From IMG/VR virus record IMGVR_UViG_3300002131_000106: DNA of 59,401 nt; one strand, written 5' to 3'. Of this stretch, positions 3,546-52,659 are shown piece after piece. Position 1 is the first letter of the stretch. Each line of letters begins with the position of its first letter. Origin of the DNA: an uncultured virus (IMG/VR IMGVR_UViG_3300002131_000106). Taxonomy: Duplodnaviria > Heunggongvirae > Uroviricota > Caudoviricetes. Under the pieces are notes generated by a model. The model was not told the DNA's origin. It did not search any database and saw only the letters and a list, made by a program, of their open reading frames with translations. A program made the translations under genes and the position numbers.

Positions 3546-3998
3546 ATGACACATAGCAAACTGCACGTACCGCGCTCACTTTTTCTTGGGTTTGAAAATC
3601 TATTTGAAGACCTGGAGAGAATTCATTCTTCCGCAAGATCAGGGGATAACTATCCTCCACACAACGTTGTTAAAATCTCTGAAGGTGTCTTTGACATTGA
3701 GATGGCTGTTGCTGGTTTTAAAGAAGAGGATCTACGTATTGAAGTAAAAGATGGTATTTTGCACATTTATGGATGTAACGCCCAGGATACTAGGGAATAC
3801 GCACATAAAGGAATATCATCGCGCAAATTCGAGAAAAGCTTCCGCATCTCCGAATTTGTTGTAATAGATGGTGCTGATCTTAGAGATGGTATACTTGTCA
3901 TTCACTTGAGAGTAGAAGTCCCAGAAGAAAAGCGTCCTAGGGAGATCAAAATCGGATCGGCTGGGGCATCAAACAAAAACGTCTTTTTACAAGACTAA
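3546..3998 (+). CDS. hsp20: small heat shock protein (Hsp20/IbpA-like)
   Basis: NYPPHNV, IEMAVAGF, HKGISSRKFEKSF, GILVI, PEEKRPREI. Confidence 0.95.
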   Translation: MTHSKLHVPRSLFLGFENLFEDLERIHSSARSGDNYPPHNVVKISEGVFDIEMAVAGFKEEDLRIEVKDGILHIYGCNAQDTREYAHKGISSRKFEKSFRISEFVVIDGADLRDGILVIHLRVEVPEEKRPREIKIGSAGASNKNVFLQD

Positions 3999-6856: not shown

Positions 6857-7135
6857 ATGATTAAACTAGTAAGATTATCGTCAGGCGAAGAGCTAATTGG
6901 CGATGTAAAAGAAACCCCTGATGGCATTACCCTTAGTGATGCTATTATTCTAATTCCCGCTGGTGAAGGTAAGATTGGGTTTATGCCTTTTATGCCATAC
7001 ACCGAAGCATCAGACGGTATTTCGATCAGCAATCAGTTTATCGTCTTTATGGTAAAGCCAGTACAAAATCTAATCGATAACCATCGTGAAGCTACTGGCA
7101 AAATTGCTTTGCCTCCCTCGAGCATTATACTATGA
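6857..7135 (+). CDS. conserved T4-like hypothetical protein (Sm-like)
   Basis: IKLVRLSSGEELIG..F.PFMPY; GGAG RBS. Confidence 0.7.
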   Translation: MIKLVRLSSGEELIGDVKETPDGITLSDAIILIPAGEGKIGFMPFMPYTEASDGISISNQFIVFMVKPVQNLIDNHREATGKIALPPSSIIL

Positions 7136-7536
7136 GTAATGACTGGGTAAAAGATATTGCTGATATGCAAGACAAGTTTGGAACCCGCGAATGGGTTAAA
7201 AATAACCCCGAAAAGCTAAAAGACTTTATGGCCTTCAGACTTGACTTTATCGAAGAAGAGTTTATGGAAACTGTTAAAGCTTTTGTTGAAAATGATCCAG
7301 AAGAAATTGTTGATGGTCTTATTGATATTTGTGTAGTAGCTATTGGTACCTTGGATGCTTTTGGTGTAAATGCTAACGAAGCTTGGAATAGAGTACTAGA
7401 AGCTAATATGGCTAAAAAAGTCGGAATTAAGAAAGAAAGACCAAATCCTTTAGGTTTACCTGACCTAGAGAAACCAAATGGATGGAAAGCACCATCTCAC
7501 GAGGGCAATCATGGTATCCTTAACAATATTCAATAG
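7132..7536 (+). CDS. MazG-like/PRA-PH-type nucleoside triphosphate pyrophosphohydrolase
   Basis: IEEEFME..EIVDGLID acidic metal motif, ANMAK, DLEKP.GW. Confidence 0.8.
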   Translation: MSNDWVKDIADMQDKFGTREWVKNNPEKLKDFMAFRLDFIEEEFMETVKAFVENDPEEIVDGLIDICVVAIGTLDAFGVNANEAWNRVLEANMAKKVGIKKERPNPLGLPDLEKPNGWKAPSHEGNHGILNNIQ

Positions 7537-8684: not shown

Positions 8685-9155
8685 ATGTTTGAATACAGAG
8701 CGAAAATACTACACATAGTGGATGGTGATACCGCAAGGGTCGATGTTGACCTTGGCTTTGGTATTGTTTATGCCAATCAAGCCGTTAGATTTTTTGGTAT
8801 CGATACACCTGAATCCAGGACCAAAGATCTTACTGAAAAATGGTATGGCAAACTTGCCTCTAATTTTGTTAGTGATCATCTAAAAGTAGGCGAAACCTAT
8901 AAAATGAAGACCACTATTGATAAGGGTAAGTTTGGAAGAATACTTGGTGAATTCTTTGTCAAGGGGTTTAAAGAAGATCTAGATCCATTTGGTCATAAAG
9001 TTCAAGAGGAATTCTCTCTGAACCAAAGAATGGTCGATCTAGGCTATGCTGTTGCTTACTTTGGTCAATCCAAGGATGATATCCAAGAGCAACATCTAAA
9101 TAACCGAGTTATTTTAGCAAATAGGGGTTTACATCCCGGCCAATACATGGTATAA
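8685..9155 (+). CDS. thermonuclease (SNase) family protein
   Basis: IVDGDT, GIDTPE, GKFGRILG. Confidence 0.85.
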   Translation: MFEYRAKILHIVDGDTARVDVDLGFGIVYANQAVRFFGIDTPESRTKDLTEKWYGKLASNFVSDHLKVGETYKMKTTIDKGKFGRILGEFFVKGFKEDLDPFGHKVQEEFSLNQRMVDLGYAVAYFGQSKDDIQEQHLNNRVILANRGLHPGQYMV

Positions 9156-9156
9156 T
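9124..9156 (+). promoter_or_regulatory. early promoter within the SNase 3' end, heading the modification operon
   Basis: GGGG TTTACA N17 TATAAT. Confidence 0.8.
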
Positions 9157-9186
9157 GGTCCTATATTAAATAAAAGAGTAAATCTT

Positions 9187-9660
9187 ATGAAAATCACTGA
9201 AATATTTGGCCTTAGTCCTGACATTACTTTTAGCTCCGAAAATCTTTCCCCTGAAACGCTAGAAGCTTTAGAGAAAGAAAGCAATCGATTAGCAAATAGT
9301 ATATTTGGGGGAACATCTGCCAAGGCCTTATCTGGTCGAACCAGGTCTATGAGCGATATACAAAGAGATTCTTATAATGGCTTATTGGCTGAATATTATC
9401 TTCGCGAAGATCTTGGATGGAAGGATGATCAAGGCCGCTGGAAAGATGTTATTTCCCCAACCGGTCTAAAGGCCGAGATTAAAACATATAGCTCAGAAAG
9501 TCCAGGAACTAAGTATAATCATATTATTAACCTTGAAAATAGAAAAACAAAATATGACCATGTAATTATGTTTAAAAGAACAAATGGGGTTTATACCTAT
9601 GACTCCTACTGGACTTATAACTATGATGAAAAACAGTATAATCTTGAGGAACAACAATAA
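9187..9660 (+). CDS. hypothetical protein, possible PD-(D/E)XK nuclease
   Basis: GLLAE..WKDV..AEIKT (E..D..ExK arrangement). Confidence 0.45.
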   Translation: MKITEIFGLSPDITFSSENLSPETLEALEKESNRLANSIFGGTSAKALSGRTRSMSDIQRDSYNGLLAEYYLREDLGWKDDQGRWKDVISPTGLKAEIKTYSSESPGTKYNHIINLENRKTKYDHVIMFKRTNGVYTYDSYWTYNYDEKQYNLEEQQ

Positions 9661-10019
9661 TGAAAACACCAATGGAAGTGCTAAAAGCAGCTGCCGAGAT
9701 TCAGCAGAAAAAAAGCAATGACTATCAAAACCCAAATTCTAGAGTTAAGCAAGCCCAGTACTACCCACGTGGCTGTTCGACTATCTCTGATATTATGTTT
9801 GGCAAGCTTCTTAGAATCCAGTCTGTTCTAGAAGCTATGGAATCTGATTCCAAATACGAGCAGAACTTTGAATCATTAGAAGATTCTGCAATAGACCTAA
9901 TTAACTACGCTACTTTCTTTGTATCGTATCTTAATGGTGGTATTTCAGGTCAAGATCCTGATCGGGACTTTCTTAACAGAGTTAAAGAAAAGACAAGGAG
10001 TATTAATGTTGATGAGTAA
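9660..10019 (+). CDS. nucleotide-modification-associated domain (Nmad1/DUF1599-like) protein
   Basis: KKSNDY, KLLRI, ESLEDSAIDLINY all-alpha pattern. Confidence 0.7.
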   Translation: MKTPMEVLKAAAEIQQKKSNDYQNPNSRVKQAQYYPRGCSTISDIMFGKLLRIQSVLEAMESDSKYEQNFESLEDSAIDLINYATFFVSYLNGGISGQDPDRDFLNRVKEKTRSINVDE

Positions 10020-10761
10020 TCATTTCGAATCAGACAATCTAGAAGATGGGCTAAAAGCCCTTCGATCTAAGTTGCTGACTGATGGATATGAAATTAAAAC
10101 TGAAAGTTGGCAAGGTAAAGGCCCTGACGAATTTCCAGCCCACCTAGAACTGCTTCATGCAGATCTTATTGTACAAATGGCAGCCACGGCTCACGAGGCC
10201 TCAACACTGCTAAAAGCTGCTCAACCATGGGCAGATGTGCATCACGAAGAACGGGTAGGGGGTTTACCTTTAAACCCACCGCCTTCGCACACAATGTGGC
10301 TTCGTGATACAGAAAAGTACTTAAGCAAAGATCAACAAGCATTTTCTCATTCATATCCAGAAAGAATGTGGTGCGATACCACGACCGATGGAATTCGCTT
10401 CAAGTGGGGTAACCTTCAAACGGCAGTTGAATTACTTAAGAAAGAACCTAATACTAGACAGTGTTATGTTCCTATGTGGTTCCCTGAAGATTCTACTGCT
10501 GCTCTAGCAGGCGAACGCGTACCTTGCACCTTTGGATGGCATTTTATGTTAAGGGATGGAAAACTCCATTGCTCATATCATATGCGATCCTGTGATGTAT
10601 GCAGACATTTGCATAATGATCTTTATTTTGCAAACCGATTAGTTTTGTGGATGATCGAGCAATCCGGCATAGATGCTGTACCAGGCACTTTGCACTTCTC
10701 CGCTACTTCCTTACATTGTTTTGTAGTTGATAGATACGTTCTTAAAAATATGGTGAAATAA
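10006..10761 (+). CDS. divergent thymidylate synthase-fold enzyme, dCMP-type specificity residue
   Basis: TRQ, catalytic VPC, YHMRSCD..HND, GTLHF...SLHCF; AAGGAG RBS before ATG 10006. Confidence 0.8.
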   Translation: MLMSNHFESDNLEDGLKALRSKLLTDGYEIKTESWQGKGPDEFPAHLELLHADLIVQMAATAHEASTLLKAAQPWADVHHEERVGGLPLNPPPSHTMWLRDTEKYLSKDQQAFSHSYPERMWCDTTTDGIRFKWGNLQTAVELLKKEPNTRQCYVPMWFPEDSTAALAGERVPCTFGWHFMLRDGKLHCSYHMRSCDVCRHLHNDLYFANRLVLWMIEQSGIDAVPGTLHFSATSLHCFVVDRYVLKNMVK

Positions 10762-10762
10762 T

Positions 10763-12076
10763 ATGTGTGGTTTTATAGCTGGAAGCGACCTACATCAGAC
10801 AACTAGTCTTTCTGATGTTATAGAAAAAATCTCTTATCGGGGATTACCAGGACTTAAGGGCTTTGAAGAGTATGGTCGGCACCAGCTGGCACATTACAGT
10901 TTGCCCTTTGTTAACCTGAATCCAAGGGTTGCTATTCAGCCTATGCACGTTAATAGTATACCTTCATTATTTGTTGGGGAAATCTTTAATTATAATGAAA
11001 TCTCTGATACTAAATATGATACGGACTCTAGAGCAATACACACCGAATACCTAAATCATGGTCTTGATGTGTTTCATAAGTTCGATGGTTTTTGGTCATT
11101 CGTTACTATTAAGGATGATAGCTTATTTGCCGTAACTGATTATTTGGCCCAAAAGCCAATATATTATAGAACAGACTGCGAGGTTTTAGCGTCTGAGATT
11201 GATGTGCTTTTGACATTTGGTAAAAACACTAGGAACCAGTTATTTCATTCGAATGTAATGAAGTGGGGCTATGATCCTACTGGTAATACACCTTGGAATG
11301 AAATTAAACAGGTTCCTCCTGGACATTACTATCACAAGGGTGCAGTTATTCCTTACTGGGATTGGTCTAAAGTGAAAAAGACAAATCTTAGGGATGACCT
11401 TAAAAAAGCCACTAGTCTGCGATTAGGGGGTCAAAGAAAACTGTCTATTCTTCTTTCTGGGGGTCTGGATTCTACCATTATATACGGACTAATCAAAGAG
11501 CTAGGTCGTGAGGTTACCGCTATACACGTAGAAAATCACGAGCATAGTTATGCCCATATGGTGTGTGAAAGTCTCGTACAGGTGGAATTAGGAGGTGTTA
11601 CGGATGAAGAAGCGGTCCTTATACACCAAACCCCTGTAGATCTAGGATCTGTTAAACCCCAAATAGCTATGGCTCGCAAGCTCAGAGAATTAGGCTTTCA
11701 TACTGTTCTTACCGGCGATGGTGCTGATGAGTTATTTGGCGGATATCGCAGAGCAGAAGATTATGATAGCCAGTATTCGGATGTCTTCTGCGAACTGCCT
11801 TATTACCATCTTCCTAGACTAGATCGTACTATGATGCACGAAACTATAGAACTTCGTTCCCCATTTTTAGCCCCCTCGATTGTAGCTCATGCTTTAGACG
11901 TGCCCTATGATCTAAGGAATGGCGAAAAAAAGGTCTTGAAAGATACATTTAAAGATATAGTTCCTAAAGAAATATTGGATAGACCTAAGCATGCACTTAA
12001 AACGGATGCTATTAGGTTATACCCTATTCAGCAGCGTGCTATTAATCAAACTATATGGGATAAGTTATATGGGTAA
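10763..12076 (+). CDS. asparagine synthetase B-like glutamine amidotransferase
   Basis: MCGF Ntn Cys, GEIFNY, PP-loop LLSGGLDS, LTGDGADELFGGY, ELRSPFL. Confidence 0.9.
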   Translation: MCGFIAGSDLHQTTSLSDVIEKISYRGLPGLKGFEEYGRHQLAHYSLPFVNLNPRVAIQPMHVNSIPSLFVGEIFNYNEISDTKYDTDSRAIHTEYLNHGLDVFHKFDGFWSFVTIKDDSLFAVTDYLAQKPIYYRTDCEVLASEIDVLLTFGKNTRNQLFHSNVMKWGYDPTGNTPWNEIKQVPPGHYYHKGAVIPYWDWSKVKKTNLRDDLKKATSLRLGGQRKLSILLSGGLDSTIIYGLIKELGREVTAIHVENHEHSYAHMVCESLVQVELGGVTDEEAVLIHQTPVDLGSVKPQIAMARKLRELGFHTVLTGDGADELFGGYRRAEDYDSQYSDVFCELPYYHLPRLDRTMMHETIELRSPFLAPSIVAHALDVPYDLRNGEKKVLKDTFKDIVPKEILDRPKHALKTDAIRLYPIQQRAINQTIWDKLYG

Positions 12077-12506
12077 TAATTGGAATAATAAGTATATGGA
12101 TCTAGCAAAGACCGTATCTAAATGGTCTAAAGACCCATCTGCTAAGATTGGTTCTGTTGCTATTAGCAGTTCAGGACAGGTATTAGCCCAAGGTTATAAT
12201 GGTTTCCCTAGAGGGATCAATGATAGCGAGACCCGCTATAATGACCGAGAGGTTAAGTATTCCTATGTAGTACATGCTGAAATGAATACGATCTATAACG
12301 CATGTATGAATGGTGTTAGCTTGTCTGACTCTACTTTTTATGTTCATGGCTTGCCAGTCTGCAATGAATGCGCTAAGGGTATTATTCAGGTAGGAACAAA
12401 AAAAGTAGTTATGAGTGGGGATATGGATAATCCTCGATGGGTTGAATCATGCAAAAAAGCGTGTGATCTATTTGATGAAGCCGGGGTTAAATGGGAGTTT
12501 ATTTAG
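12069..12506 (+). CDS. cd: dCMP deaminase
   Basis: WSKDP, GYNGFPRG, HAE and PVCNEC zinc motifs. Confidence 0.92.
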   Translation: MGNNWNNKYMDLAKTVSKWSKDPSAKIGSVAISSSGQVLAQGYNGFPRGINDSETRYNDREVKYSYVVHAEMNTIYNACMNGVSLSDSTFYVHGLPVCNECAKGIIQVGTKKVVMSGDMDNPRWVESCKKACDLFDEAGVKWEFI

Positions 12507-12510
12507 CTTC

Positions 12511-12544
12511 GGGGGTTTACAATAAGCCCAAAGTGTGGTATAAT
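12511..12544 (+). promoter_or_regulatory. early promoter
   Basis: GGGGG TTTACA N17 TATAAT. Confidence 0.8.
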
Positions 12545-12575: not shown

Positions 12576-12809
12576 ATGTTTAAAGAAGATAGGCAAAAAC
12601 CCAATCGGAATAGCAAAGAAATTCCCTTTGATGTTCTTTTGCGAAGATTTAAGAAAGAAGTTGATAGGTCTGGTGTTTTGCAAGACCTTCGAAAAAAGGA
12701 ATACTATGAGAAGCCTACCTGGAAGCGCAAGCGCGAAAAGGCGGAGGCAGTATCTCGCTGGAAAACTAAAGAGCGTTCCTTAAATATGAAACCCAAAAGG
12801 TTGTACTAA
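12576..12809 (+). CDS. rpsU: 30S ribosomal protein bS21
   Basis: [29 protein letters not shown]. Confidence 0.88.
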
Positions 12810-15724: not shown

Positions 15725-16396
15725 TTGAAAGTAAAGCTTATATCTTATTCTCAGCTACCTCCGGGTGTTGAGTCTGATATCGTAGATAATGACCTATTAC
15801 AACTGGTAGCTTACTGTGCTAGGGTATCAAACCCTTCCAATCAGAATAACCCAGATACTTCTGAAAAGCTAGTTAAATACCTTATGAAACACAAGCATTG
15901 GTCCCCCCTAGAAATGGTTTCTGTTTGTTTGGAGGTCGAGACAACAAGAGATATAGCAAGACAGTTCCTTCGCCATAGGTCGTTCTCATTTCAGGAGTTT
16001 AGCCAGAGATACGCAGACCCAGTTAAAGATCTGAATTTCGAGCTTCGTGATGCAAGACTGCAAGATCCCAAAAACCGCCAAAATAGTATTCCTCTTGATA
16101 TGAGTGATGAATATGAAGGGGGATTACAGGATCGCTGGTATCAAAGGCAGCAAAGGGTGATTGATGAATCTCTGATGGCTTATAAATGGGCAATTGATAA
16201 TGGTATTGCTAAAGAACAAGCTAGGGCTGTACTTCCAGAAGGCAATACTATGTCTAGATTGTATGCCAATGGTACGCTCCGCAGTTGGATACATTATATG
16301 GATCTTAGAGGAGCTAACGGTACACAGTCTGAGCATATAGAAATTGCTAAGGCTTGTGCTAAAGTAATATATGAGATTTTTCCATTAGAAGTATAA
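15725..16396 (+). CDS. thyX: flavin-dependent thymidylate synthase
   Basis: RHRSFSFQEFSQRY signature, HWSPLE, EQARAVLP; TTG start. Confidence 0.95.
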   Translation: MKVKLISYSQLPPGVESDIVDNDLLQLVAYCARVSNPSNQNNPDTSEKLVKYLMKHKHWSPLEMVSVCLEVETTRDIARQFLRHRSFSFQEFSQRYADPVKDLNFELRDARLQDPKNRQNSIPLDMSDEYEGGLQDRWYQRQQRVIDESLMAYKWAIDNGIAKEQARAVLPEGNTMSRLYANGTLRSWIHYMDLRGANGTQSEHIEIAKACAKVIYEIFPLEV

Positions 16397-24144: not shown

Positions 24145-24819
24145 ATGAAAGATTTTAGGTATTTTCTAGATGAAGGGGTTAATGATCCTGGTATTTTTAA
24201 GGCTATCTTTTTAGCCGGAGGACCAGGTTCAGGCAAGTCTTATGTTACTAGTAAGGTTATCCCTTCTTCCCTAGGTTTAAAGATGATTAATTCTGACGAA
24301 GTATTTGAATTAAAAATGCAGAAGGCAGACCTAGACCTAGATCCAGAAAGTATTGCTTCACCTAAAGGCCAAGAAATAAGAGATAAGGCCAAGGCCATTA
24401 CAAATAAAAGACAAAAGTTATACCTTGCTGGTAGACTTGGACTAGTTATAGATGGCACCGGCAAAGACTTTGATAAGATAGAAGGACAAGTAAGACATTT
24501 AAAATCTCTAGGTTATGATTGTTATATGATATTTGTTAACACCTCAGAAGAGGTTGCTCAGTCTAGAAATTTAGCAAGACCTAGGTCACTAGAAAGTGAT
24601 TTAGTAAAAAGACTCTGGTCAAGGGTTCAGAGAAATATCGGATCATTTCAAAGTTTATTCGGAAGGGATAACTTTGCAATTATTGATAATAATAATGCTA
24701 ATGAAGAAATATTCAAACCCGTTTTTAAAGATATTGTTAGATTTGTAAAAAAAGCAGTAGAAAATCACGTTGCTAGGAAATGGATTAACGATCAAAGGTG
24801 GTTTAATAAGAATGGATAG
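24145..24819 (+). CDS. P-loop kinase (zeta-toxin/AAA_33-like)
   Basis: FLAGGPGSGKS, INSD, LVIDGTG, RN..R.R lid. Confidence 0.75.
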   Translation: MKDFRYFLDEGVNDPGIFKAIFLAGGPGSGKSYVTSKVIPSSLGLKMINSDEVFELKMQKADLDLDPESIASPKGQEIRDKAKAITNKRQKLYLAGRLGLVIDGTGKDFDKIEGQVRHLKSLGYDCYMIFVNTSEEVAQSRNLARPRSLESDLVKRLWSRVQRNIGSFQSLFGRDNFAIIDNNNANEEIFKPVFKDIVRFVKKAVENHVARKWINDQRWFNKNG

Positions 24820-28178: not shown

Positions 28179-28515
28179 CGGGTGTTCATTACTTACCCCC
28201 AAGCCTCGTGAAGTTGAGATCATTACTAAGCCTGTACAGATAAAAATAGTACAGCCTACATTACCAAGACCCCTAGATTTAAAAGAGCCCTATTGGTATG
28301 TTGTTAGCGAAAAAAATCTGGATCAGTTTATAAAAGATGTTACTGCTCAATCAGGCACTTTAGTTTTTACCGCTATGACTATAGAAGACTATGAGCTTAT
28401 GGCATATAATATGCAAGAAATCAAGAGGTATGTAAGAGAGCTAGGTCAAGTTGTTATATACTATAAAAAAGTAACCACTATCGAGGAACCGGAAGAAGAT
28501 GGAAAACAAGATTAA
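28132..28515 (+). CDS. outer-membrane spanin lipoprotein (Rz1-like)
   Basis: signal with lipobox ISSGC, then Pro-rich segment. Confidence 0.7.
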   Translation: MVLKQIALISAILISSGCSLLTPKPREVEIITKPVQIKIVQPTLPRPLDLKEPYWYVVSEKNLDQFIKDVTAQSGTLVFTAMTIEDYELMAYNMQEIKRYVRELGQVVIYYKKVTTIEEPEEDGKQD

Positions 28516-29266
28516 TTTTAAAAGGTCGCTACTTGCGGCTAACCTAGCTCAAGCCGCATATTGGATTGAAGACGAATCAAGCATTAGGACTAAAGAGCTT
28601 GGCCTTACAAAATCTAAACTAGTATCTAAAAAGGGTGCTGAAGTCCTTATTACTCAGTCCAAGACTGAATTGTGGTTTGCTTTTAGAGGGACAGAGCCTA
28701 CTAAGTTTAATGATGTTATGGCCGATCTAAAAGTTATTAAACATACAGCAAAAGCTGGTGGAAAGGTACACGGCGGATTCCAAGATGAGGTAAATGAGAT
28801 TTGGTCCGAGTGTCAGTTAGAGCTTGATAAAAATGATAACCTAAAGAACCCAAAAGAAGTATACATGTGCGGACATAGTCTTGGTGCTGCTATGGCTACA
28901 ATCGCTGCCAGCCGTTATAAAAATACGAAAGAACTGTATACGTTTGGATCACCAAGAGTTGGTGGTAAGAAATTTACAGATACCCTTTGTACTCCACATT
29001 ATAGATTTGTTAATAATAATGACATTGTTACTCGTGTCCCACCAACTCTATTGCGTTTTAGCCATGACGGCACCGAAATATACTTTAACGCTTATGGACT
29101 TATAAGAGCCCATAGTGGATGGCAAGGCGTAAAAGATACCTTTAGAGGCTTATGGGCTAACTGGAAATCAGGGGTATTCTTTGATTCATTCAGTGATCAT
29201 GGTATGGTTAATTATATCTCTTGCATAGAGAACGAATGTAAACTCGAAGATTCAAAAGGAGAATAG
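28499..29266 (+). CDS. lipase class 3 (alpha/beta hydrolase)
   Basis: AFRGTE, VHGGF, GHSLG nucleophile elbow, TFGSPRVG, DIVTRVP, terminal DH. Confidence 0.9.
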   Translation: MENKINFKRSLLAANLAQAAYWIEDESSIRTKELGLTKSKLVSKKGAEVLITQSKTELWFAFRGTEPTKFNDVMADLKVIKHTAKAGGKVHGGFQDEVNEIWSECQLELDKNDNLKNPKEVYMCGHSLGAAMATIAASRYKNTKELYTFGSPRVGGKKFTDTLCTPHYRFVNNNDIVTRVPPTLLRFSHDGTEIYFNAYGLIRAHSGWQGVKDTFRGLWANWKSGVFFDSFSDHGMVNYISCIENECKLEDSKGE

Positions 29267-45729: not shown

Positions 45730-45996
45730 ATGACAGATAACTTATTAGATTTTGACTTTGGTTTCACTGCGGTGGATGAGAACGAGCTAGAGGTCGTTCA
45801 ACATTCCACTGTTACTGTGAGTAATGAACAAGCTAGGTCAAAGGAATTAGAAGACAAATTGAATAAGCTATACAATGCTATACAGCCTCTTCTTAGTAAC
45901 CTTAAAAAGAATCCAGAGAAAGAGTATATACTTTGGCCCAACAGAACTGAGAAAATAGAACAGTTCGAAGATTTGATTAGAGGAATTATAAAGTAA
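45730..45996 (+). CDS. conserved hypothetical protein
   Basis: DFDFGFTAVDE..PLL.NL.KNP.K.YI.WPNR. Confidence 0.7.
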   Translation: MTDNLLDFDFGFTAVDENELEVVQHSTVTVSNEQARSKELEDKLNKLYNAIQPLLSNLKKNPEKEYILWPNRTEKIEQFEDLIRGIIK

Positions 45997-47174
45997 TGAC
46001 TATACCTAGTACTAATATAAGCTTAGCTGCCATACAGGCAGAAACGGGATATGGTTCTACTAGCAATATATCACTGACCACACAATCTCAGAATGCTATT
46101 ACTGCAGGAAACACTATTAACAACACCGCGCCTTATGGTATGCACGAGTGGATTGGATATGTTCATGCTACGGCATATGGTACATTAAGTGGGGTTGTGC
46201 GAGCTCGCACAATAGGCAGTACTGCTAATTCTTTCTATAGAGCTTACAGTACTAGTCAAAGCGGTGACGGTTTTGTTGTCAGTGTTTATGCTCTTGTAAA
46301 AGTAGTCTTGAACACTTCAGGTTGCTATCTTCAAGTAGCAGGTATCAACGCTGTCTCTACTTCATACTGGTATAATCTAGCAGGCGCGGCGCAGAATCTA
46401 GGAAATACTTATGTTACAGCAGCTTCTGGTACTACAGGATTTACTAGTAACAATGTAAGCGCGGTTCAATTAATATACGGAGTTGAAACAGGTACTGCAA
46501 GCTTTTCTGCAAATGCCGGCGCTACGTATTTTCCGGCAAGTGGTGCATGGCAATCTCTTAGTAATGGGCAATCAGCCGGGTTTCAGGTTCGTGAAACTAC
46601 CCCAATAATATATGCTAGTGAATCAGGTTCAGCGAATCACTACGGTTACGTTACATTATCGCTTAGAGGTCCTGGAAAATTAGACACAGAGGTCTATGCA
46701 TTAGATTGGTATATGACTGTCTCCGGTAGCTCTACAAGTTGCTTCACTGCTGGCAGTTTGGTCACTATGGGTGATGGTTCTACTAAAGCAATTGAGACTG
46801 TCGTGGTAGGTGAAGAGCTAATGGGTAATGAAGGTGTTACTAATACTGTAATTCAATTAAGACATCATGAACAAAGGATTAGACAAATTTACGTTATTAA
46901 TAACTATCTGGAAACTACAGAAACTCACCCGATACTTACTACTGACGGATGGAAATCTTTATTACCTGAAGCTACTACTGAGCAACATCCAGAATTAACA
47001 ATCTCTATGCTAGAAATAGGTGACACGTTAGTTAAGTACAATACCTCAGGCGTGCGTTCAGAGGAAGTTATAGAAACCATAACTAGTGACGAAAGAGATA
47101 TTCCAGTATATAACTTTGATGTTACCGGTAATGATACCTTCATCGTTAATGATGTTGTAGTACATAACAAGTAA
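45996..47174 (+). CDS. putative virion/fibre-associated protein with C-terminal Hint (intein-like) domain
   Basis: Ser/Thr/Gly-rich N part; Hint from Cys249 CFTAGS, T.THP, VYNFDV..F..VVHN-K. Confidence 0.8.
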   Translation: MTIPSTNISLAAIQAETGYGSTSNISLTTQSQNAITAGNTINNTAPYGMHEWIGYVHATAYGTLSGVVRARTIGSTANSFYRAYSTSQSGDGFVVSVYALVKVVLNTSGCYLQVAGINAVSTSYWYNLAGAAQNLGNTYVTAASGTTGFTSNNVSAVQLIYGVETGTASFSANAGATYFPASGAWQSLSNGQSAGFQVRETTPIIYASESGSANHYGYVTLSLRGPGKLDTEVYALDWYMTVSGSSTSCFTAGSLVTMGDGSTKAIETVVVGEELMGNEGVTNTVIQLRHHEQRIRQIYVINNYLETTETHPILTTDGWKSLLPEATTEQHPELTISMLEIGDTLVKYNTSGVRSEEVIETITSDERDIPVYNFDVTGNDTFIVNDVVVHNK

Positions 47175-52275: not shown

Positions 52276-52659
52276 ATGGCTTATTCAGAACAAGTAATGG
52301 ATCATTACAACAACCCACGCAATGTGGGCAAGTTAGATAAAGAGTCAGACTCGGTTGGTTCCGGAATGGTAGGTGCTCCCGCGTGTGGTGACGTCATGCT
52401 ATTACAAATACAGGTGAACAACGATGGAATTATCGAAGATGCTAAATTTAAAACCTACGGATGCGGAAGTGCTATCGCTTCTTCCAGCTTGCTTACCGAA
52501 TGGGTTAAAGGTCTCAGTCTTGATGAAGCTGGGAATATTAGAAACACCGAGCTCGCTGAAGAGCTCGCCCTCCCTCCAGTCAAGATCCACTGTAGTGTCC
52601 TTGCAGAAGATGCGATCAAAGCTGCGATAAAGGATTACCGCAGTAAGCATATTTTATAA
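52276..52659 (+). CDS. iscU: Fe-S cluster scaffold protein IscU
   Basis: DHYNNPRNVG, APACGD, GCGSAIASSS, LPPVKIHCS. Confidence 0.96.
   Translation: MAYSEQVMDHYNNPRNVGKLDKESDSVGSGMVGAPACGDVMLLQIQVNNDGIIEDAKFKTYGCGSAIASSSLLTEWVKGLSLDEAGNIRNTELAEELALPPVKIHCSVLAEDAIKAAIKDYRSKHIL

What the first reader, a model, noticed from the sequence alone, without database searches (positions are those of the whole stretch)
9124..12506. Candidate novel DNA base-modification operon: dCMP-type TS homolog plus AsnB-like amidotransferase
Seen: one promoter (9124-9156) heads a tightly coupled run of nuclease-like ORF, Nmad1-like protein, TS-fold enzyme, AsnB-like amidotransferase and dCMP deaminase. A MazG-like enzyme and SNase lie just upstream. 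The TS homolog reads RSCDVCRHLHND. Aligned to E. coli ThyA RSCDVFLGLPFN, it has Asp where ThyA has Asn177, as T4 dCMP hydroxymethylase does, which indicates cytosine specificity (established determinant). It also has RH in place of the usual LG/FG. A separate ThyX (15725) supplies dTMP, so this enzyme is free for another role. AsnB-type enzymes adenylate an acceptor and transfer glutamine-derived ammonia. Inference: a pre-replicative pathway making a C5-substituted, amidated or aminated cytosine nucleotide, with pyrophosphatases removing the canonical dNTP. No glycosyltransferase is visible here and I know no characterised pathway with this combination. The product is unknown.
Basis: partly seen in the sequence, partly recalled or inferred. 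Interest (0 to 1): 0.88.

Follow-up and report, generated by a model that had tools for sequence, protein, structure and literature searches.

The report
Phage cytosine-modification operon with amidotransferase
A T4-like phage from an uncultured source carries the usual gene kit for swapping DNA cytosine for a modified cytosine, plus a virus-only relative of asparagine synthetase that probably adds a nitrogen group, which would give a DNA base that has not yet been described.

Summary
A promoter-like site at 9128-9156 heads five tightly packed genes: an unknown 157-aa ORF, an Nmad1-like protein, a thymidylate-synthase (TS) homolog, an AsnB-like amidotransferase and a dCMP deaminase. A MazG-like enzyme, an SNase and a ThyX lie nearby. 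Only the "nuclease-like" label of the first ORF has no support.

The TS belongs to a distinct subfamily. It keeps Cys146 and Asp169, and it has invariant Arg, His and Asp at ThyA positions 143, 173 and 177.

The MazG and Nmad1 proteins match the two halves of one fused protein that sits beside the TS of the 5-methylcytosine phage Xp12. The core is therefore an Xp12/T4-type cytosine-replacement kit.

The AsnB-like protein is a compact family listed almost only from viruses. It keeps the glutaminase Cys and the PP-loop, but three positions I recall as acceptor-site residues differ from E. coli AsnB. It lies next to this TS subfamily, or next to a thymidylate-kinase-like gene, in several unrelated phage backbones.

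The product is unknown and I found no paper on this pairing. The nearest precedent is CmoY of phage S-B43, an AsnB homolog that amidates 5-carboxymethylcytosine in DNA. CmoA and CmoX were not found here.

This scan has noted the same module in at least six other genomes. I rate it a new variant of a known kind, interest 0.7.

The parts
7132..7536 (+). MazG-like (PRA-PH family) nucleotide pyrophosphohydrolase. It is the candidate dCTP/dUTP-clearing enzyme, but its substrate is inferred.
   Evidence: PF01503 E 1.8e-10 and phrog_671 E 2.9e-23. BLASTP E 6.6e-12 to residues 37-139 of the Xp12 protein encoded directly upstream of the Xp12 TS.
8685..9155 (+). Staphylococcal-nuclease-like endonuclease. 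It lies upstream of the unit and is not shown to be part of the pathway.
   Evidence: PF00565 E 4.1e-11 and phrog_452 E 4.3e-27. My iterated profile search found it in 14 ORFs across the 149 loci held at the time.
9128..9156 (+). Sigma-70-type early-promoter-like site (TTTACA, 17-nt spacer, TG, TATAAT) heading the five-gene unit.
   Evidence: 11 of 12 consensus matches plus the extended -10 TG. It is one of 12 copies of the motif in the window, against 0.13 expected. The next copy is at 12516-12544, after the deaminase.
9187..9660 (+). 157-aa ORF of unknown function, the first gene of the unit.
   Evidence: No family in Pfam, PHROGs or NCBIfam. Atlas neighbours are unnamed viral clusters. Relatives were found in 17 ORFs of the fetched loci.
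9660..10019 (+). Nmad1 (DUF1599)-like small helical protein.
   Evidence: PF07659 E 8.6e-4, 20 bits, below the 25-bit cut-off. phrog_18404 E 3.4e-11. BLASTP E 4.3e-13 to residues 174-255 of the Xp12 MazG-Nmad1 fusion protein.
10006..10761 (+). TS-fold enzyme of the 'Arg143 / His173 / Asp177' subfamily. It is predicted to act on dCMP at C5. The product is unknown.
   Evidence: PF00303 E 1.6e-8 and phrog_160 E 4.6e-31. Cys146, Arg166, Ser167 and Asp169 are kept; Asn177 is Asp. AF2 pLDDT 92.0. The best Foldseek hits are phage HY126 dCMP hydroxylase 9iqu (E 6e-15) and CMP hydroxymethylase MilA.
10585..10620 (+). Active-site motif RSCDVCRHLHND. Its last residue is the Asp at the ThyA Asn177 position.
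   Evidence: Translation and alignments A1 and A3.
10763..12076 (+). Compact (437 aa) AsnB-type amidotransferase found almost only in viruses. It has an N-terminal Cys glutaminase domain and a PP-loop ATP pyrophosphatase domain. The acceptor is unknown.
   Evidence: PF00733 E 1.9e-30. TIGR01536 scores 171.9 bits, below the 267.1 cut-off. AF2 pLDDT 93.3. The best Foldseek hit is E. coli AsnB 1ct9, E 1.7e-25. Residue comparison. Of the ten Atlas cluster rows printed, seven are mostly viral (79-100%) and three mostly bacterial.
12063..12506 (+). dCMP deaminase family enzyme (HAE and PCxxC zinc motifs are present in the translation).
   Evidence: PF00383 E 9e-20 and phrog_174 E 2.7e-35. Translation. 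It follows the AsnB-like gene in 34 of 34 close loci with at least 3 kb on both sides.
15725..16396 (+). Flavin-dependent thymidylate synthase ThyX. It is the separate dTMP supply that frees the TS homolog for another role.
   Evidence: PF02511 E 3.6e-40 and phrog_85 E 1.2e-73.

Best explanation
The unit is a phage cytosine-replacement pathway of the T4/Xp12 kind that works on nucleotides, with one extra enzyme.

Shown by sequence: the five genes form one promoter-bracketed, translationally packed unit. The TS homolog keeps the catalytic Cys and the phosphate-binding residues and has the cytosine-type Asp. The AsnB-like protein keeps the glutaminase nucleophile and the ATP-pyrophosphatase loop.

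Inferred pathway:
1. The MazG-like and Nmad1 proteins return dCTP to dCMP.
2. The TS homolog adds a C5 substituent to dCMP. Its conserved Arg and His, where ThyA has Leu143 and Gly173, suggest a product or co-substrate other than a plain methyl group.
3. The AsnB-like enzyme adenylates an oxygen function of that nucleotide. A carboxyl group on the side chain is the most likely target by family precedent; a hydroxymethyl group or the ring C4 oxygen is less likely. It then replaces that oxygen with ammonia made from glutamine.
4. A nucleotide kinase and the phage polymerase place the new base in DNA. The kinase is not identified in this window.
5. The deaminase and ThyX keep dTTP supplied.

The result would be a nitrogen-bearing 5-substituted cytosine that shields phage DNA from host nucleases.
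For: 1. One unit. Promoter-like sites at 9128 and 12516 bracket the genes, and all junctions overlap or are 1 nt apart.

2. TS subfamily. In 22 of 22 aligned members Cys146, Arg at position 143, Asp169, His at 173 and Asp at 177 are invariant. Papers I read state that Asp177 switches TS to dCMP and marks contigs with modified cytosine. These are eLife 2021 PMC8670742 (passages) and NAR 2026 PMC13326640 (sections 24 and 28).

3. Xp12 parallel. Phage Xp12 is described as fully 5mC-substituted in bioRxiv 10.1101/2024.12.05.627091 (section 5). It has the order [MazG+Nmad1 fusion]-TS(Asp)-dCMP deaminase, and both window proteins hit that fusion.

4. The TS is not redundant. ThyX coexists with it in the window and in Zuko, and ThyA coexists with it in the complete jumbo record G003.

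5. Linkage of the AsnB-like gene to this TS.
- TS lies within 5 kb in 34 of 34 loci at 44% identity or more that have at least 3 kb on both sides (32 within 600 bp).
- TS lies within 5 kb in 12 of 35 loci at 32-40% identity.
- The contexts include unrelated backbones: L068 has SNF2 helicase and Enc34-type SSB with the order TS-Tmk-AsnB-MazG-deaminase; the ~36-kb contigs have pyrophosphohydrolase-TS-AsnB.
- The other 23 of the 35 are one jumbo-phage lineage. In each of the five I inspected, a thymidylate-kinase-like gene sits directly upstream of the AsnB-like gene.
- The one complete genome of that lineage has the same TS subfamily 96 kb away.

6. The enzyme looks competent. Cys1 is kept in 121 of 121 close relatives. 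Gly75, Glu76, Asp98, the SGGLDS loop, Lys429 and Lys449 are all kept. Glu348 is Asp and Asp384 is His in 121 of 121, and Lys376 is hydrophobic in most. This is consistent with an acceptor other than aspartate (the roles of these AsnB residues are recalled, not taken from a call).

7. The family is mostly viral and large. There are 193 representatives at E<=1e-30, and the three nearest Atlas clusters are 89-100% viruses.
Against: - No product has been seen, and nothing in the calls identifies the acceptor.
- This TS subfamily occurs without any AsnB-like gene in 89 phage records that cover at least 80% of the query, among them Muddy, Serbin and Gordonia phages. The amidotransferase is therefore an optional add-on, and the TS product need not carry a carboxyl group.
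- Muddy and Serbin have no other TS. In them this TS could simply make dTMP.
- Known TS-type chemistry gives methyl, hydroxymethyl or hydroxyl groups, none of which is a usual AsnB acceptor.
- In the family the Asn74 oxyanion residue is Val or a gap, and in the window's subgroup Arg49 is Ser or Ala. This may weaken glutamine use.
- No nucleotide kinase of the thymidylate-kinase family was found in the window or in its 64-72% complete relatives.
- In the MetaGPA table the Asn_synthase domain is not significantly enriched on cytosine-modified contigs: 6 selected against 255 unselected, p 0.059, corrected p 1.
- Much of the linkage within the T4-like lineage is inherited synteny, and several contigs were fetched twice under two locus ids.
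Confidence: 0.5

Rival explanations
1. The cassette makes only a simple modified cytosine (5-methyl or 5-hydroxymethyl, as in Xp12 or T4). The AsnB-like enzyme is an unrelated auxiliary metabolic gene, for example for asparagine or another amide, that happens to sit in the early operon.
For: MazG, Nmad1, TS(Asp) and deaminase already form a complete Xp12-type set. Overall fold and sequence are closest to true asparagine synthetases. The Asn_synthase domain is not significantly linked to modified contigs in MetaGPA supplementary table 2. The window holds other auxiliary metabolic genes, such as NifU, lipase and HSP20.
Against: The gene sits between TS and deaminase with a 1-nt gap and a 14-nt overlap. 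It recurs beside this TS subfamily or a thymidylate-kinase-like gene in unrelated backbones. The family is mostly viral. It is about 115 aa shorter than AsnB, scores below the NCBIfam AsnB cut-off (171.9 against 267.1 bits), and three AsnB positions are changed, two invariantly.
Confidence: 0.15
2. The AsnB-like enzyme acts after replication on DNA, as CmoY does. It would amidate a carboxyl-bearing base already in the polymer with glutamine-derived ammonia.
For: SpCmoY, an asparagine-synthetase homolog, ligates glycine to 5-carboxymethylcytosine in DNA. A second, glutaminase-bearing cluster is proposed to use ammonia (PMC12783734, sections 11 and 13). The TurkishDelight gp123-125 arrangement is methyltransferase, GATase/AsnB, methyltransferase. 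Its gp124 aligns full-length to the window protein (23% identity, E 4e-23). In distant relatives L094 and L133 a C5-cytosine methylase homolog lies between the AsnB-like gene and the TS.
Against: No PF00145 methylase or CmoA (TIGR00740) was found in the window or in 5 of 5 related records, which are only 17-72% complete. That search tool also missed a known TS in another record. Similarity to SpCmoY itself is limited to the PP-loop (E 0.005). The partners here are mononucleotide enzymes: TS, deaminase, pyrophosphohydrolases and thymidylate-kinase-like genes.
Confidence: 0.15
3. The TS homolog is just a divergent thymidylate synthase and the unit is an ordinary dTTP-supply operon. No base is modified.
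For: In Muddy and Serbin this TS type is the only TS. It sits in a classic order of thymidylate kinase, dUTPase, hypothetical protein, TS and deaminase. The best NCBIfam match is the short archaeal TS model TIGR03283 (E 8.7e-9). Earlier notes of this scan report archaeal TS enzymes with Asp at this position that must still supply thymine (unchecked).
Against: ThyX is 3.2 kb downstream in the same window. Zuko and the complete jumbo record G003 also carry a second, canonical TS. Asp177 is invariant. The C-terminal folate-closing segment of ThyA is missing. The top structural neighbours are cytidylate-modifying enzymes, although their E-values are close to those of true TS.
Confidence: 0.1

Closest known systems
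Xanthomonas phage Xp12 5-methylcytosine cassette (MazG-Nmad1 fusion, dCMP-methylating TS homolog, dCMP deaminase)
   Same: It has the same component set and order. Asp sits at ThyA-177. The window's MazG and Nmad1 proteins match the two halves of the Xp12 fusion protein, with E 6.6e-12 and 4.3e-13.
   Different: Xp12 has no AsnB-like gene and has a DHFR-like gene downstream. Its TS is a different subfamily (32% identity over 43% of the query; Asn rather than Arg at position 143 and Leu-Gly-type residues at 172-173). The window splits MazG and Nmad1 into two genes 2.1 kb apart.
T4 hydroxymethylcytosine pathway (gp56 dCTPase, gp42 dCMP hydroxymethylase, gp1 dNMP kinase, Cd deaminase) and the related 5-hydroxy-dCMP synthases (RB69 gp48, HY126 AfhB)
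   Same: The phage backbone is T4-like: clamp loader, RegA, gp43, gp59, gp32, UvsX and RNase H. The logic is nucleotide-level: a TS homolog with Asp177 and a truncated C-terminus. The best PDB matches are 9iqu and 9iqc.
   Different: Asp169 is kept, whereas the 5-hydroxy-dCMP synthases have Asn there (PMC13326640 section 28; Mosigvirus row). Arg, not an acidic residue, sits at position 143. No glycosyltransferase was seen. An amidotransferase is present.
CmoA/CmoX/CmoY of Synechococcus phage S-B43 (5-carboxymethylcytosine and its glycine amide; Yang et al., Nat Commun 2025, PMC12783734)
   Same: A phage asparagine-synthetase homolog is used as an ATP-dependent amide-forming enzyme in cytosine hypermodification. 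That paper notes an untested glutaminase-bearing cluster.
   Different: CmoY is 271 aa, has no glutaminase domain and acts on DNA. Its carboxyl handle comes from a C5-methyltransferase homolog using carboxy-SAM. In the window the partner is a TS homolog. CmoA and CmoX were not found, and sequence similarity to SpCmoY is limited to the PP-loop.
Asparagine synthetase B (E. coli AsnB, human ASNS)
   Same: It has the same two-domain fold (Foldseek E 1.7e-25, TM about 0.76), the N-terminal Cys, the SGGLDS PP-loop, and Lys429 and Lys449.
   Different: The window protein is 437 aa against 554 aa. It scores below the TIGR01536 cut-off. Asn74 is Val or a gap, Glu348 is Asp, Asp384 is His and Lys376 is hydrophobic. 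It is 24% identical. Its family is mostly viral.

Membership tests
Thymidylate synthase / dCMP hydroxymethylase superfamily (PF00303) | TS fold and a profile match above the curated cut-off | tested here: met
   PF00303 scores 34.4 bits against a 24.3-bit cut-off. The AF2 model has pLDDT 92.0, and 396 Foldseek matches at E<=0.001 are led by TS-fold enzymes.
Thymidylate synthase / dCMP hydroxymethylase superfamily (PF00303) | Catalytic Cys146 and phosphate-binding Arg126, Arg166 and Ser167 | tested here: met
   These residues are invariant in alignments A1 (8 sequences) and A3 (22 sequences).
Canonical ThyA (dUMP to dTMP) | Asn177, which selects uracil | tested here: not met
   Asp is at this column in the window and in 22 of 22 subfamily members.
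Canonical ThyA (dUMP to dTMP) | C-terminal segment that closes over the folate cofactor (about 57 residues after His207) | tested here: not met
   Only 14 residues follow the aligned His in the window protein.
5-hydroxy-dCMP synthase (RB69 gp48 / DLP3 gp80 / HY126 AfhB type) | Asn in place of Asp169 (the diagnostic residue given in PMC13326640, section 28) | tested here: not met
   Asp169 is kept (RSCD). The Mosigvirus homolog in the same alignment shows SQN.
T4-type dCMP hydroxymethylase | Asp at position 177 together with an acidic residue at position 143 (as stated in PMC13326640, section 24) | tested here: inconclusive
   Asp177 is met. Position 143 is an invariant Arg, not Asp or Glu. No T4 gp42 sequence was put in the alignment.
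Xp12-type dCMP methyltransferase cassette | TS with Asp177, flanked by MazG/Nmad1 and a dCMP deaminase | tested here: met
   However, the TS belongs to another subfamily, so the product may differ.
Asparagine synthetase B (TIGR01536 / PF00733) | N-terminal nucleophile Cys and the PP-loop SGGLDS | tested here: met
   The protein starts MCGF. The loop is invariant in 121 of 121 relatives.
Asparagine synthetase B (TIGR01536 / PF00733) | Equivalog-level score and the residues recalled as aspartate-site or catalytic (Asn74, Glu348, Lys376, Asp384) | tested here: not met
   The score is 171.9 bits against a 267.1-bit cut-off. Asn74 is a gap or Val, Glu348 is Asp, Lys376 is Val/Met/Ile/Thr and Asp384 is His. 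The roles of these residues are recalled, not taken from a call.
CmoY (phage 5-carboxymethylcytosine amide ligase) | Genomic association with CmoA (Cx-SAM synthase) and CmoX (a C5-methyltransferase homolog) | tested here: not met
   There is no PF00145 or TIGR00740 match in 5 of 5 related records, which are 17-72% complete. Neither family appears among the window ORFs scanned.
CmoY (phage 5-carboxymethylcytosine amide ligase) | Sequence relationship to SpCmoY beyond the shared PP-loop | tested here: not met
   BLASTP E 0.005 over 47 residues around the PP-loop only.
dCMP / cytidine deaminase (PF00383) | Profile match and the zinc motifs HAE and PCxxC | tested here: met
   70.9 bits against a 25-bit cut-off. 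The motifs are visible in the translation. Substrate preference (dCMP against 5-substituted dCMP) cannot be tested with these tools.
Nmad1 / DUF1599 (PF07659) | Profile match above the cut-off | tested here: inconclusive
   20 bits against a 25-bit cut-off. It is supported by phrog_18404 (E 3.4e-11) and by the Xp12 fusion protein (E 4.3e-13).

The most novel reading that the evidence does not exclude
The TS homolog and the compact AsnB-like enzyme together make a DNA base not yet described: a cytosine whose C5 side chain ends in an amide or amine nitrogen taken from glutamine. It would be built at the mononucleotide stage. This would be a new reaction class for the asparagine-synthetase family (a pyrimidine nucleotide as acceptor) and a new product class for TS-fold enzymes. 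It may be widespread, because close homologs are very numerous in metagenomes (3920 at E<=1e-5 among the 8000 candidates scored).
Probability: 0.4. Interest if true: 0.85.

Novelty: new variant of a known kind. Interest (0 to 1): 0.7.

Why it matters
Modified bases decide whether phage DNA survives host restriction and CRISPR defences, and they have given useful enzymes for sequencing and biotechnology. This module is abundant. The AsnB-like family has 193 representatives at E<=1e-30 in a library clustered at 50% identity, and it occurs on contigs up to about 150 kb and in a 348-kb jumbo phage. It spans several unrelated phage lineages, yet neither this TS subfamily nor the amidotransferase has a known product. 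The question can be tested directly with three or four cloned genes and nucleoside mass spectrometry. A positive result would add a new natural DNA base, a new activity for two well-studied enzyme families, and a marker for spotting modified genomes in metagenomes.

Tried and rejected
- DNA-level search of the region against 50,697 phage records found no match. The lineage has no cultured relative in that collection.
- Paper searches found nothing on the pairing. The terms tried were thymidylate synthase + asparagine synthase/synthetase + phage, a six-term search including amidotransferase, and Muddy/Gordonia TS. 'Nmad1' returned six unrelated papers. The PDB codes 9IQU/9IQC/9IR2 returned one unrelated paper.
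- Complex prediction for the TS with the AsnB-like protein could not be run: the queue was full twice and then the tool was declared unavailable. Whether the two proteins bind was not tested.
- No whole genome is held for this window. The rest of the phage genome was judged only from related records that are 17-72% complete.
- The TS-subfamily profile A3 found nothing in five jumbo-lineage contigs, 0 of 5, all 39-59% complete, with no positive control in that call. This is uninformative.
- PF02223 (thymidylate kinase) gave 0 of 5 records above the cut-off.
- The genome search missed the TS of record G012, although hmmscan finds it at E 6.8e-8. Its negative answers, including those for CmoA and CmoX, are therefore weak.
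- A methyltransferase-like protein (partial N6_N4_Mtase match) sits just upstream of Nmad1-TS in many relatives (39 ORFs). It has no counterpart in the window at hmmsearch E<=1, so I did not count it as part of this window's system.
- The conserved hypothetical proteins next to the TS in Zuko, Muddy and Serbin (phrog_13667 and phrog_34294, function unknown) show no similarity to the AsnB-like, p157 or Nmad1 proteins.
- I did not see the supplementary figures of the bioRxiv preprint. They may hold TS product assignments relevant to this subfamily.

Full report
**What is in the sequence**

All genes in the region are on the + strand. The 157-aa ORF (9187-9660), the Nmad1-like ORF (9660-10019), the TS homolog (10006/10012-10761), the AsnB-like ORF (10763-12076) and the dCMP deaminase (12063-12506) are joined by overlaps or by a 1-nt gap.

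A sigma-70-type site, TTTACA-N17-TATAAT with an extended -10 TG, lies at 9128-9156. The next one lies at 12516-12544. The motif occurs 12 times in the window, all on the + strand, against 0.13 expected from shuffles. The five genes therefore look like one early transcription unit.

- TS: PF00303, 34.4 bits.
- AsnB-like: PF00733, E 1.9e-30, plus the class-II glutaminase domains.
- Deaminase: PF00383, E 9e-20.
- MazG-like: PF01503, at 7132-7536.
- SNase: PF00565, at 8685-9155.
- ThyX: PF02511, at 15725-16396.

The 157-aa ORF has no family anywhere I looked, so 'nuclease-like' is unsupported. Nmad1 is below Pfam's cut-off but is supported by other evidence described below.

The rest of the window shows a T4-like phage. 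It has clamp loader, RegA, gp43-type polymerase, UvsX, gp59, gp32, RNase H and ribonucleotide reductase. No glycosyltransferase, C5-methyltransferase or dioxygenase family was hit among the 88 ORFs scanned.

**The TS homolog**

In a MAFFT alignment with E. coli ThyA, Cys146, Arg126, Arg166, Ser167, Asp169 and His207 are kept. Asn177 is Asp, Leu172-Gly173 are Arg-His, and Leu143 is Arg. The C-terminal segment that closes over folate in ThyA is missing (motif at 10585-10620).

Across 22 diverse members taken from loci that also encode the AsnB-like protein, several residues are invariant: Cys146, Arg at 143, Asp169, His at 173 and Asp at 177.

The closest cultured relatives, at 35-42% identity over the full length, are annotated 'thymidylate synthases' of Streptomyces phage Zuko, Mycobacterium phage Muddy, many Gordonia phages and Serratia phage Serbin. 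They share the signature.

Papers I read give the meaning of some of these positions:
- Asp177 switches TS to dCMP. It is the residue most strongly associated with cytosine-modified contigs (eLife 2021, PMC8670742, passages; NAR 2026, PMC13326640, section 24).
- The flavin-dependent 5-hydroxy-dCMP synthases are marked by Asn at position 169 (PMC13326640, section 28). The window enzyme keeps Asp169, so it is not of that type.

The AF2 model is confident (pLDDT 92.0). Its best Foldseek hits are phage HY126 dCMP hydroxylase (9iqu, 9iqc) and CMP hydroxymethylase MilA. True TS enzymes follow at nearly the same E-values. The product cannot be read from the sequence.

**The Xp12 parallel**

Phage Xp12 is described as fully 5-methylcytosine-substituted in bioRxiv 10.1101/2024.12.05.627091 (section 5). 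In it, the gene directly upstream of the TS(Asp177) is a 257-aa protein. The window's MazG-like protein matches its N-terminal half (E 6.6e-12) and the window's Nmad1-like protein matches its C-terminal half (E 4.3e-13). A dCMP deaminase follows the Xp12 TS.

The two MetaGPA papers report that TS(Asp177), PRA-PH pyrophosphohydrolase and dCMP deaminase co-occur on cytosine-modified contigs. They also report that some of these deaminases prefer 5-substituted cytosine. In supplementary table 2 the counts of selected against unselected contigs are TS 109/303, deaminase 99/429 and PRA-PH 50/179.

The core of the window's unit is therefore a known kind of cytosine-replacement kit.

This TS type is not redundant with dTMP synthesis in at least three genomes:
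- The window has ThyX.
- Zuko has ThyX.
- The complete 348-kb jumbo record G003 has a canonical ThyA (273 bits) as well as a member of this subfamily (281 bits to my local profile).

Muddy and Serbin have only this TS. That keeps the plain-TS reading alive for those phages.

**The AsnB-like enzyme**

It is 437 aa long. It is 24% identical to E. coli AsnB (E 1e-22) and scores below the NCBIfam equivalog cut-off.

The AF2 model is confident (pLDDT 93.3). It matches AsnB, human ASNS, TsnB9, beta-lactam synthetase and carbapenam synthetase.

I aligned it with 120 close relatives and E. coli AsnB:
- Kept: Cys1 in 121 of 121, Gly75, Glu76, Asp98, the SGGLDS loop, Lys429 and Lys449.
- Changed: Asn74 is a gap (Val in the raw sequence), Arg49 is Ser or Ala, Glu348 is always Asp, Asp384 is always His, and Lys376 is hydrophobic.

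In a wider set of 37 sequences at 29-47% identity, Cys2 stays nearly invariant and the Arg49 position is Arg in the consensus.

Keeping the nucleophile Cys argues that glutamine-derived ammonia is still used. The family members I recall as having lost the glutaminase function have lost this Cys, and CmoY lacks the whole domain. The changed synthetase-site residues argue for an acceptor other than aspartate. The roles of these AsnB residues are recalled, not taken from a call.

The family is large and mostly viral:
- 3920 proteins at E<=1e-5 among the 8000 candidates scored.
- 193 representatives at E<=1e-30 in the 50%-clustered library.
- The three nearest Atlas clusters are 89-100% viruses. 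Of the ten cluster rows printed, seven are mostly viral and three mostly bacterial.
- No member of the compact family in the 50,697 phage records. There were only 10 weak hits at 21-24% identity.

**Linkage across phages**

I fetched 69 loci with the single protein and 80 with a family alignment. I annotated them with local iterated profiles.

Among the 71 loci with at least 3 kb on both sides of the AsnB-like gene:

| Identity to the window protein | Loci | TS within 5 kb | TS within 600 bp | Deaminase within 5 kb |
|---|---|---|---|---|
| 44% or more | 34 | 34 | 32 | 34 |
| 32-40% | 35 | 12 | 8 | 2 |
| 24-26% | 2 | 0 | 0 | 0 |

Two caveats apply. The first group is one T4-like lineage with conserved synteny from polymerase to ThyX. 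Several contigs were fetched twice under two ids.

The informative cases are the unrelated backbones:
- L068 has an Enc34-type SSB, a VRR-NUC nuclease and an SNF2 helicase, followed by TS, a thymidylate-kinase-like gene, AsnB-like, MazG-like and deaminase.
- A set of ~36-kb contigs has DUF6378, a pyrophosphohydrolase, TS and AsnB-like.
- L110, L115, L122, L133, L134, L137 and L138 have further arrangements.

The 23 loci of the 32-40% group without a nearby TS are one jumbo-phage lineage. In each of the five I inspected, a P-loop protein matching the thymidylate-kinase PHROG 761 sits directly upstream of the AsnB-like gene. The only complete genome of that lineage has the same TS subfamily 96 kb away. 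Five incomplete contigs gave nothing.

The partners of the AsnB-like gene are therefore always pyrimidine-mononucleotide enzymes. This is why I place its step at the nucleotide level.

**The published precedent**

I read its abstract, sections 11 and 13, and passages.
- In Synechococcus phage S-B43, CmoA makes carboxy-SAM.
- CmoX, a C5-methyltransferase homolog, makes 5-carboxymethylcytosine in DNA.
- CmoY, an asparagine-synthetase homolog, ligates glycine to it.
- The authors also describe a second ligase cluster with a glutaminase domain, presumed to use ammonia. They could not obtain it in soluble form.

Streptomyces phage TurkishDelight shows that arrangement: methyltransferase, GATase/AsnB and methyltransferase after two ParB genes.

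The window protein aligns with TurkishDelight gp124 no better than with E. coli AsnB (E 4e-23 against 1e-22). With SpCmoY it shares only the PP-loop.

No C5-methylase or CmoA was found in the window or in five related records. These are weak negatives: the records are 17-72% complete, and the tool missed a known TS elsewhere.

The window's system is therefore not a CmoAXY system. That work does show that phages use AsnB-type enzymes to build amides on cytosine side chains.

**Most likely mechanism and its limits**

I put about 0.7 on this lineage replacing or modifying cytosine through the TS homolog. I put about 0.5 on the full statement that the AsnB-like enzyme then converts the TS product, or a closely related pyrimidine dNMP, into a nitrogen-bearing derivative before polymerisation.

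By family precedent the acceptor should be a carboxyl group. How a TS-fold enzyme would supply one is open. The invariant Arg143 and His173 could bind an anionic co-substrate, but that is speculation. Adenylation of a hydroxymethyl oxygen (giving an aminomethyl group) or of the ring C4 oxygen (re-amination of a 5-substituted dUMP) are less precedented alternatives.

Points against the statement:
- This TS subfamily occurs in 89 cultured-phage records without the amidotransferase.
- The Asn_synthase domain is not significantly enriched on modified contigs in MetaGPA: 6 against 255, p 0.059, corrected p 1.
- The family's altered oxyanion residue may weaken glutamine use.
- No dNMP kinase is identified in this lineage. 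A 224-aa P-loop protein at 24145-24819 is a candidate only.

**Novelty**

My searches found no paper on the TS + AsnB pairing. The same module was noted by this scan in at least six other genomes. I treat those notes as leads, not as evidence. I classify the finding as a new variant of a known kind (phage cytosine hypermodification), with a real chance (about 0.4) that it encodes an undescribed DNA base.

Noticed in passing
window 12576-12809: Phage-encoded ribosomal protein bS21 (PF01165, E 8.1e-17; phrog_21469). It has its own copy of the early-promoter motif at 12516-12544 and is conserved after the deaminase in most T4-like relatives.
   Followed up: partly
window 4227, 6801, 9128, 12516, 29518, 33767, 36089, 40329, 43225, 44392, 55093, 57145: Twelve copies of TTTACA-N14-TG-N-TATAAT, all on the + strand, against 0.13 expected by chance. 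The three I checked (6801, 9128, 12516) lie in gaps between genes. This looks like the phage's early-promoter set.
   Followed up: partly
L078 2079-4306; L016 3986-4897; L110 2164-3348; L137 3528-4655: Many relatives carry a methyltransferase-like protein (partial N6_N4_Mtase match; 39 ORFs by local profile) directly beside the Nmad1-TS-AsnB genes. In L078 an S-adenosylhomocysteine hydrolase lies between the TS and the AsnB-like gene as well. The window has no counterpart.
   Followed up: partly
L094 6744-7937; L133 6344-8650: In two distant relatives a C5-cytosine DNA methylase homolog (PF00145, E 1.6e-25 and 5.4e-16) lies between the AsnB-like gene and the TS. TS-type and methylase-type cytosine chemistry therefore coexist in one cassette.
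   Followed up: no
L009 1057-5145: One T4-like relative has sugar-nucleotide genes inserted just upstream of its TS-AsnB pair: a KDO-8-phosphate-synthase-like gene (DAHP_synth_1), a CMP-sugar cytidylyltransferase (CTP_transf_3), a cupin and a PMM/HAD-like phosphatase.
   Followed up: no
window 45996-47174: A 392-aa ORF with a Hint / homing-endonuclease-associated Hint domain at residues 248-328 (PF05203, E 1.7e-9). It could be an intein-like or Hint-bearing protein.
   Followed up: no
window 52276-52659; 28499-29266; 3546-3998: Auxiliary host-like genes: a NifU/IscU-type Fe-S scaffold (E 3.2e-51), a class-3 lipase (E 3.2e-23) and an HSP20 small heat-shock protein (E 5e-14).
   Followed up: no
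window 24145-24819: A 224-aa P-loop protein (AAA_33 / zeta-toxin-like kinase fold; phrog_12810, E 3e-46). It is the only candidate small-molecule kinase seen in the window and might be the missing nucleotide kinase.
   Followed up: partly
L070 2865-3926; L071 3033-3926; L072 3177-3986: In Zuko, Muddy and Serbin a conserved hypothetical protein of 269-353 aa sits directly upstream of the same TS subfamily. It is phrog_13667 in Zuko and Muddy and phrog_34294 in Serbin, both of unknown function. It may be an alternative partner to the AsnB-like enzyme.
   Followed up: partly
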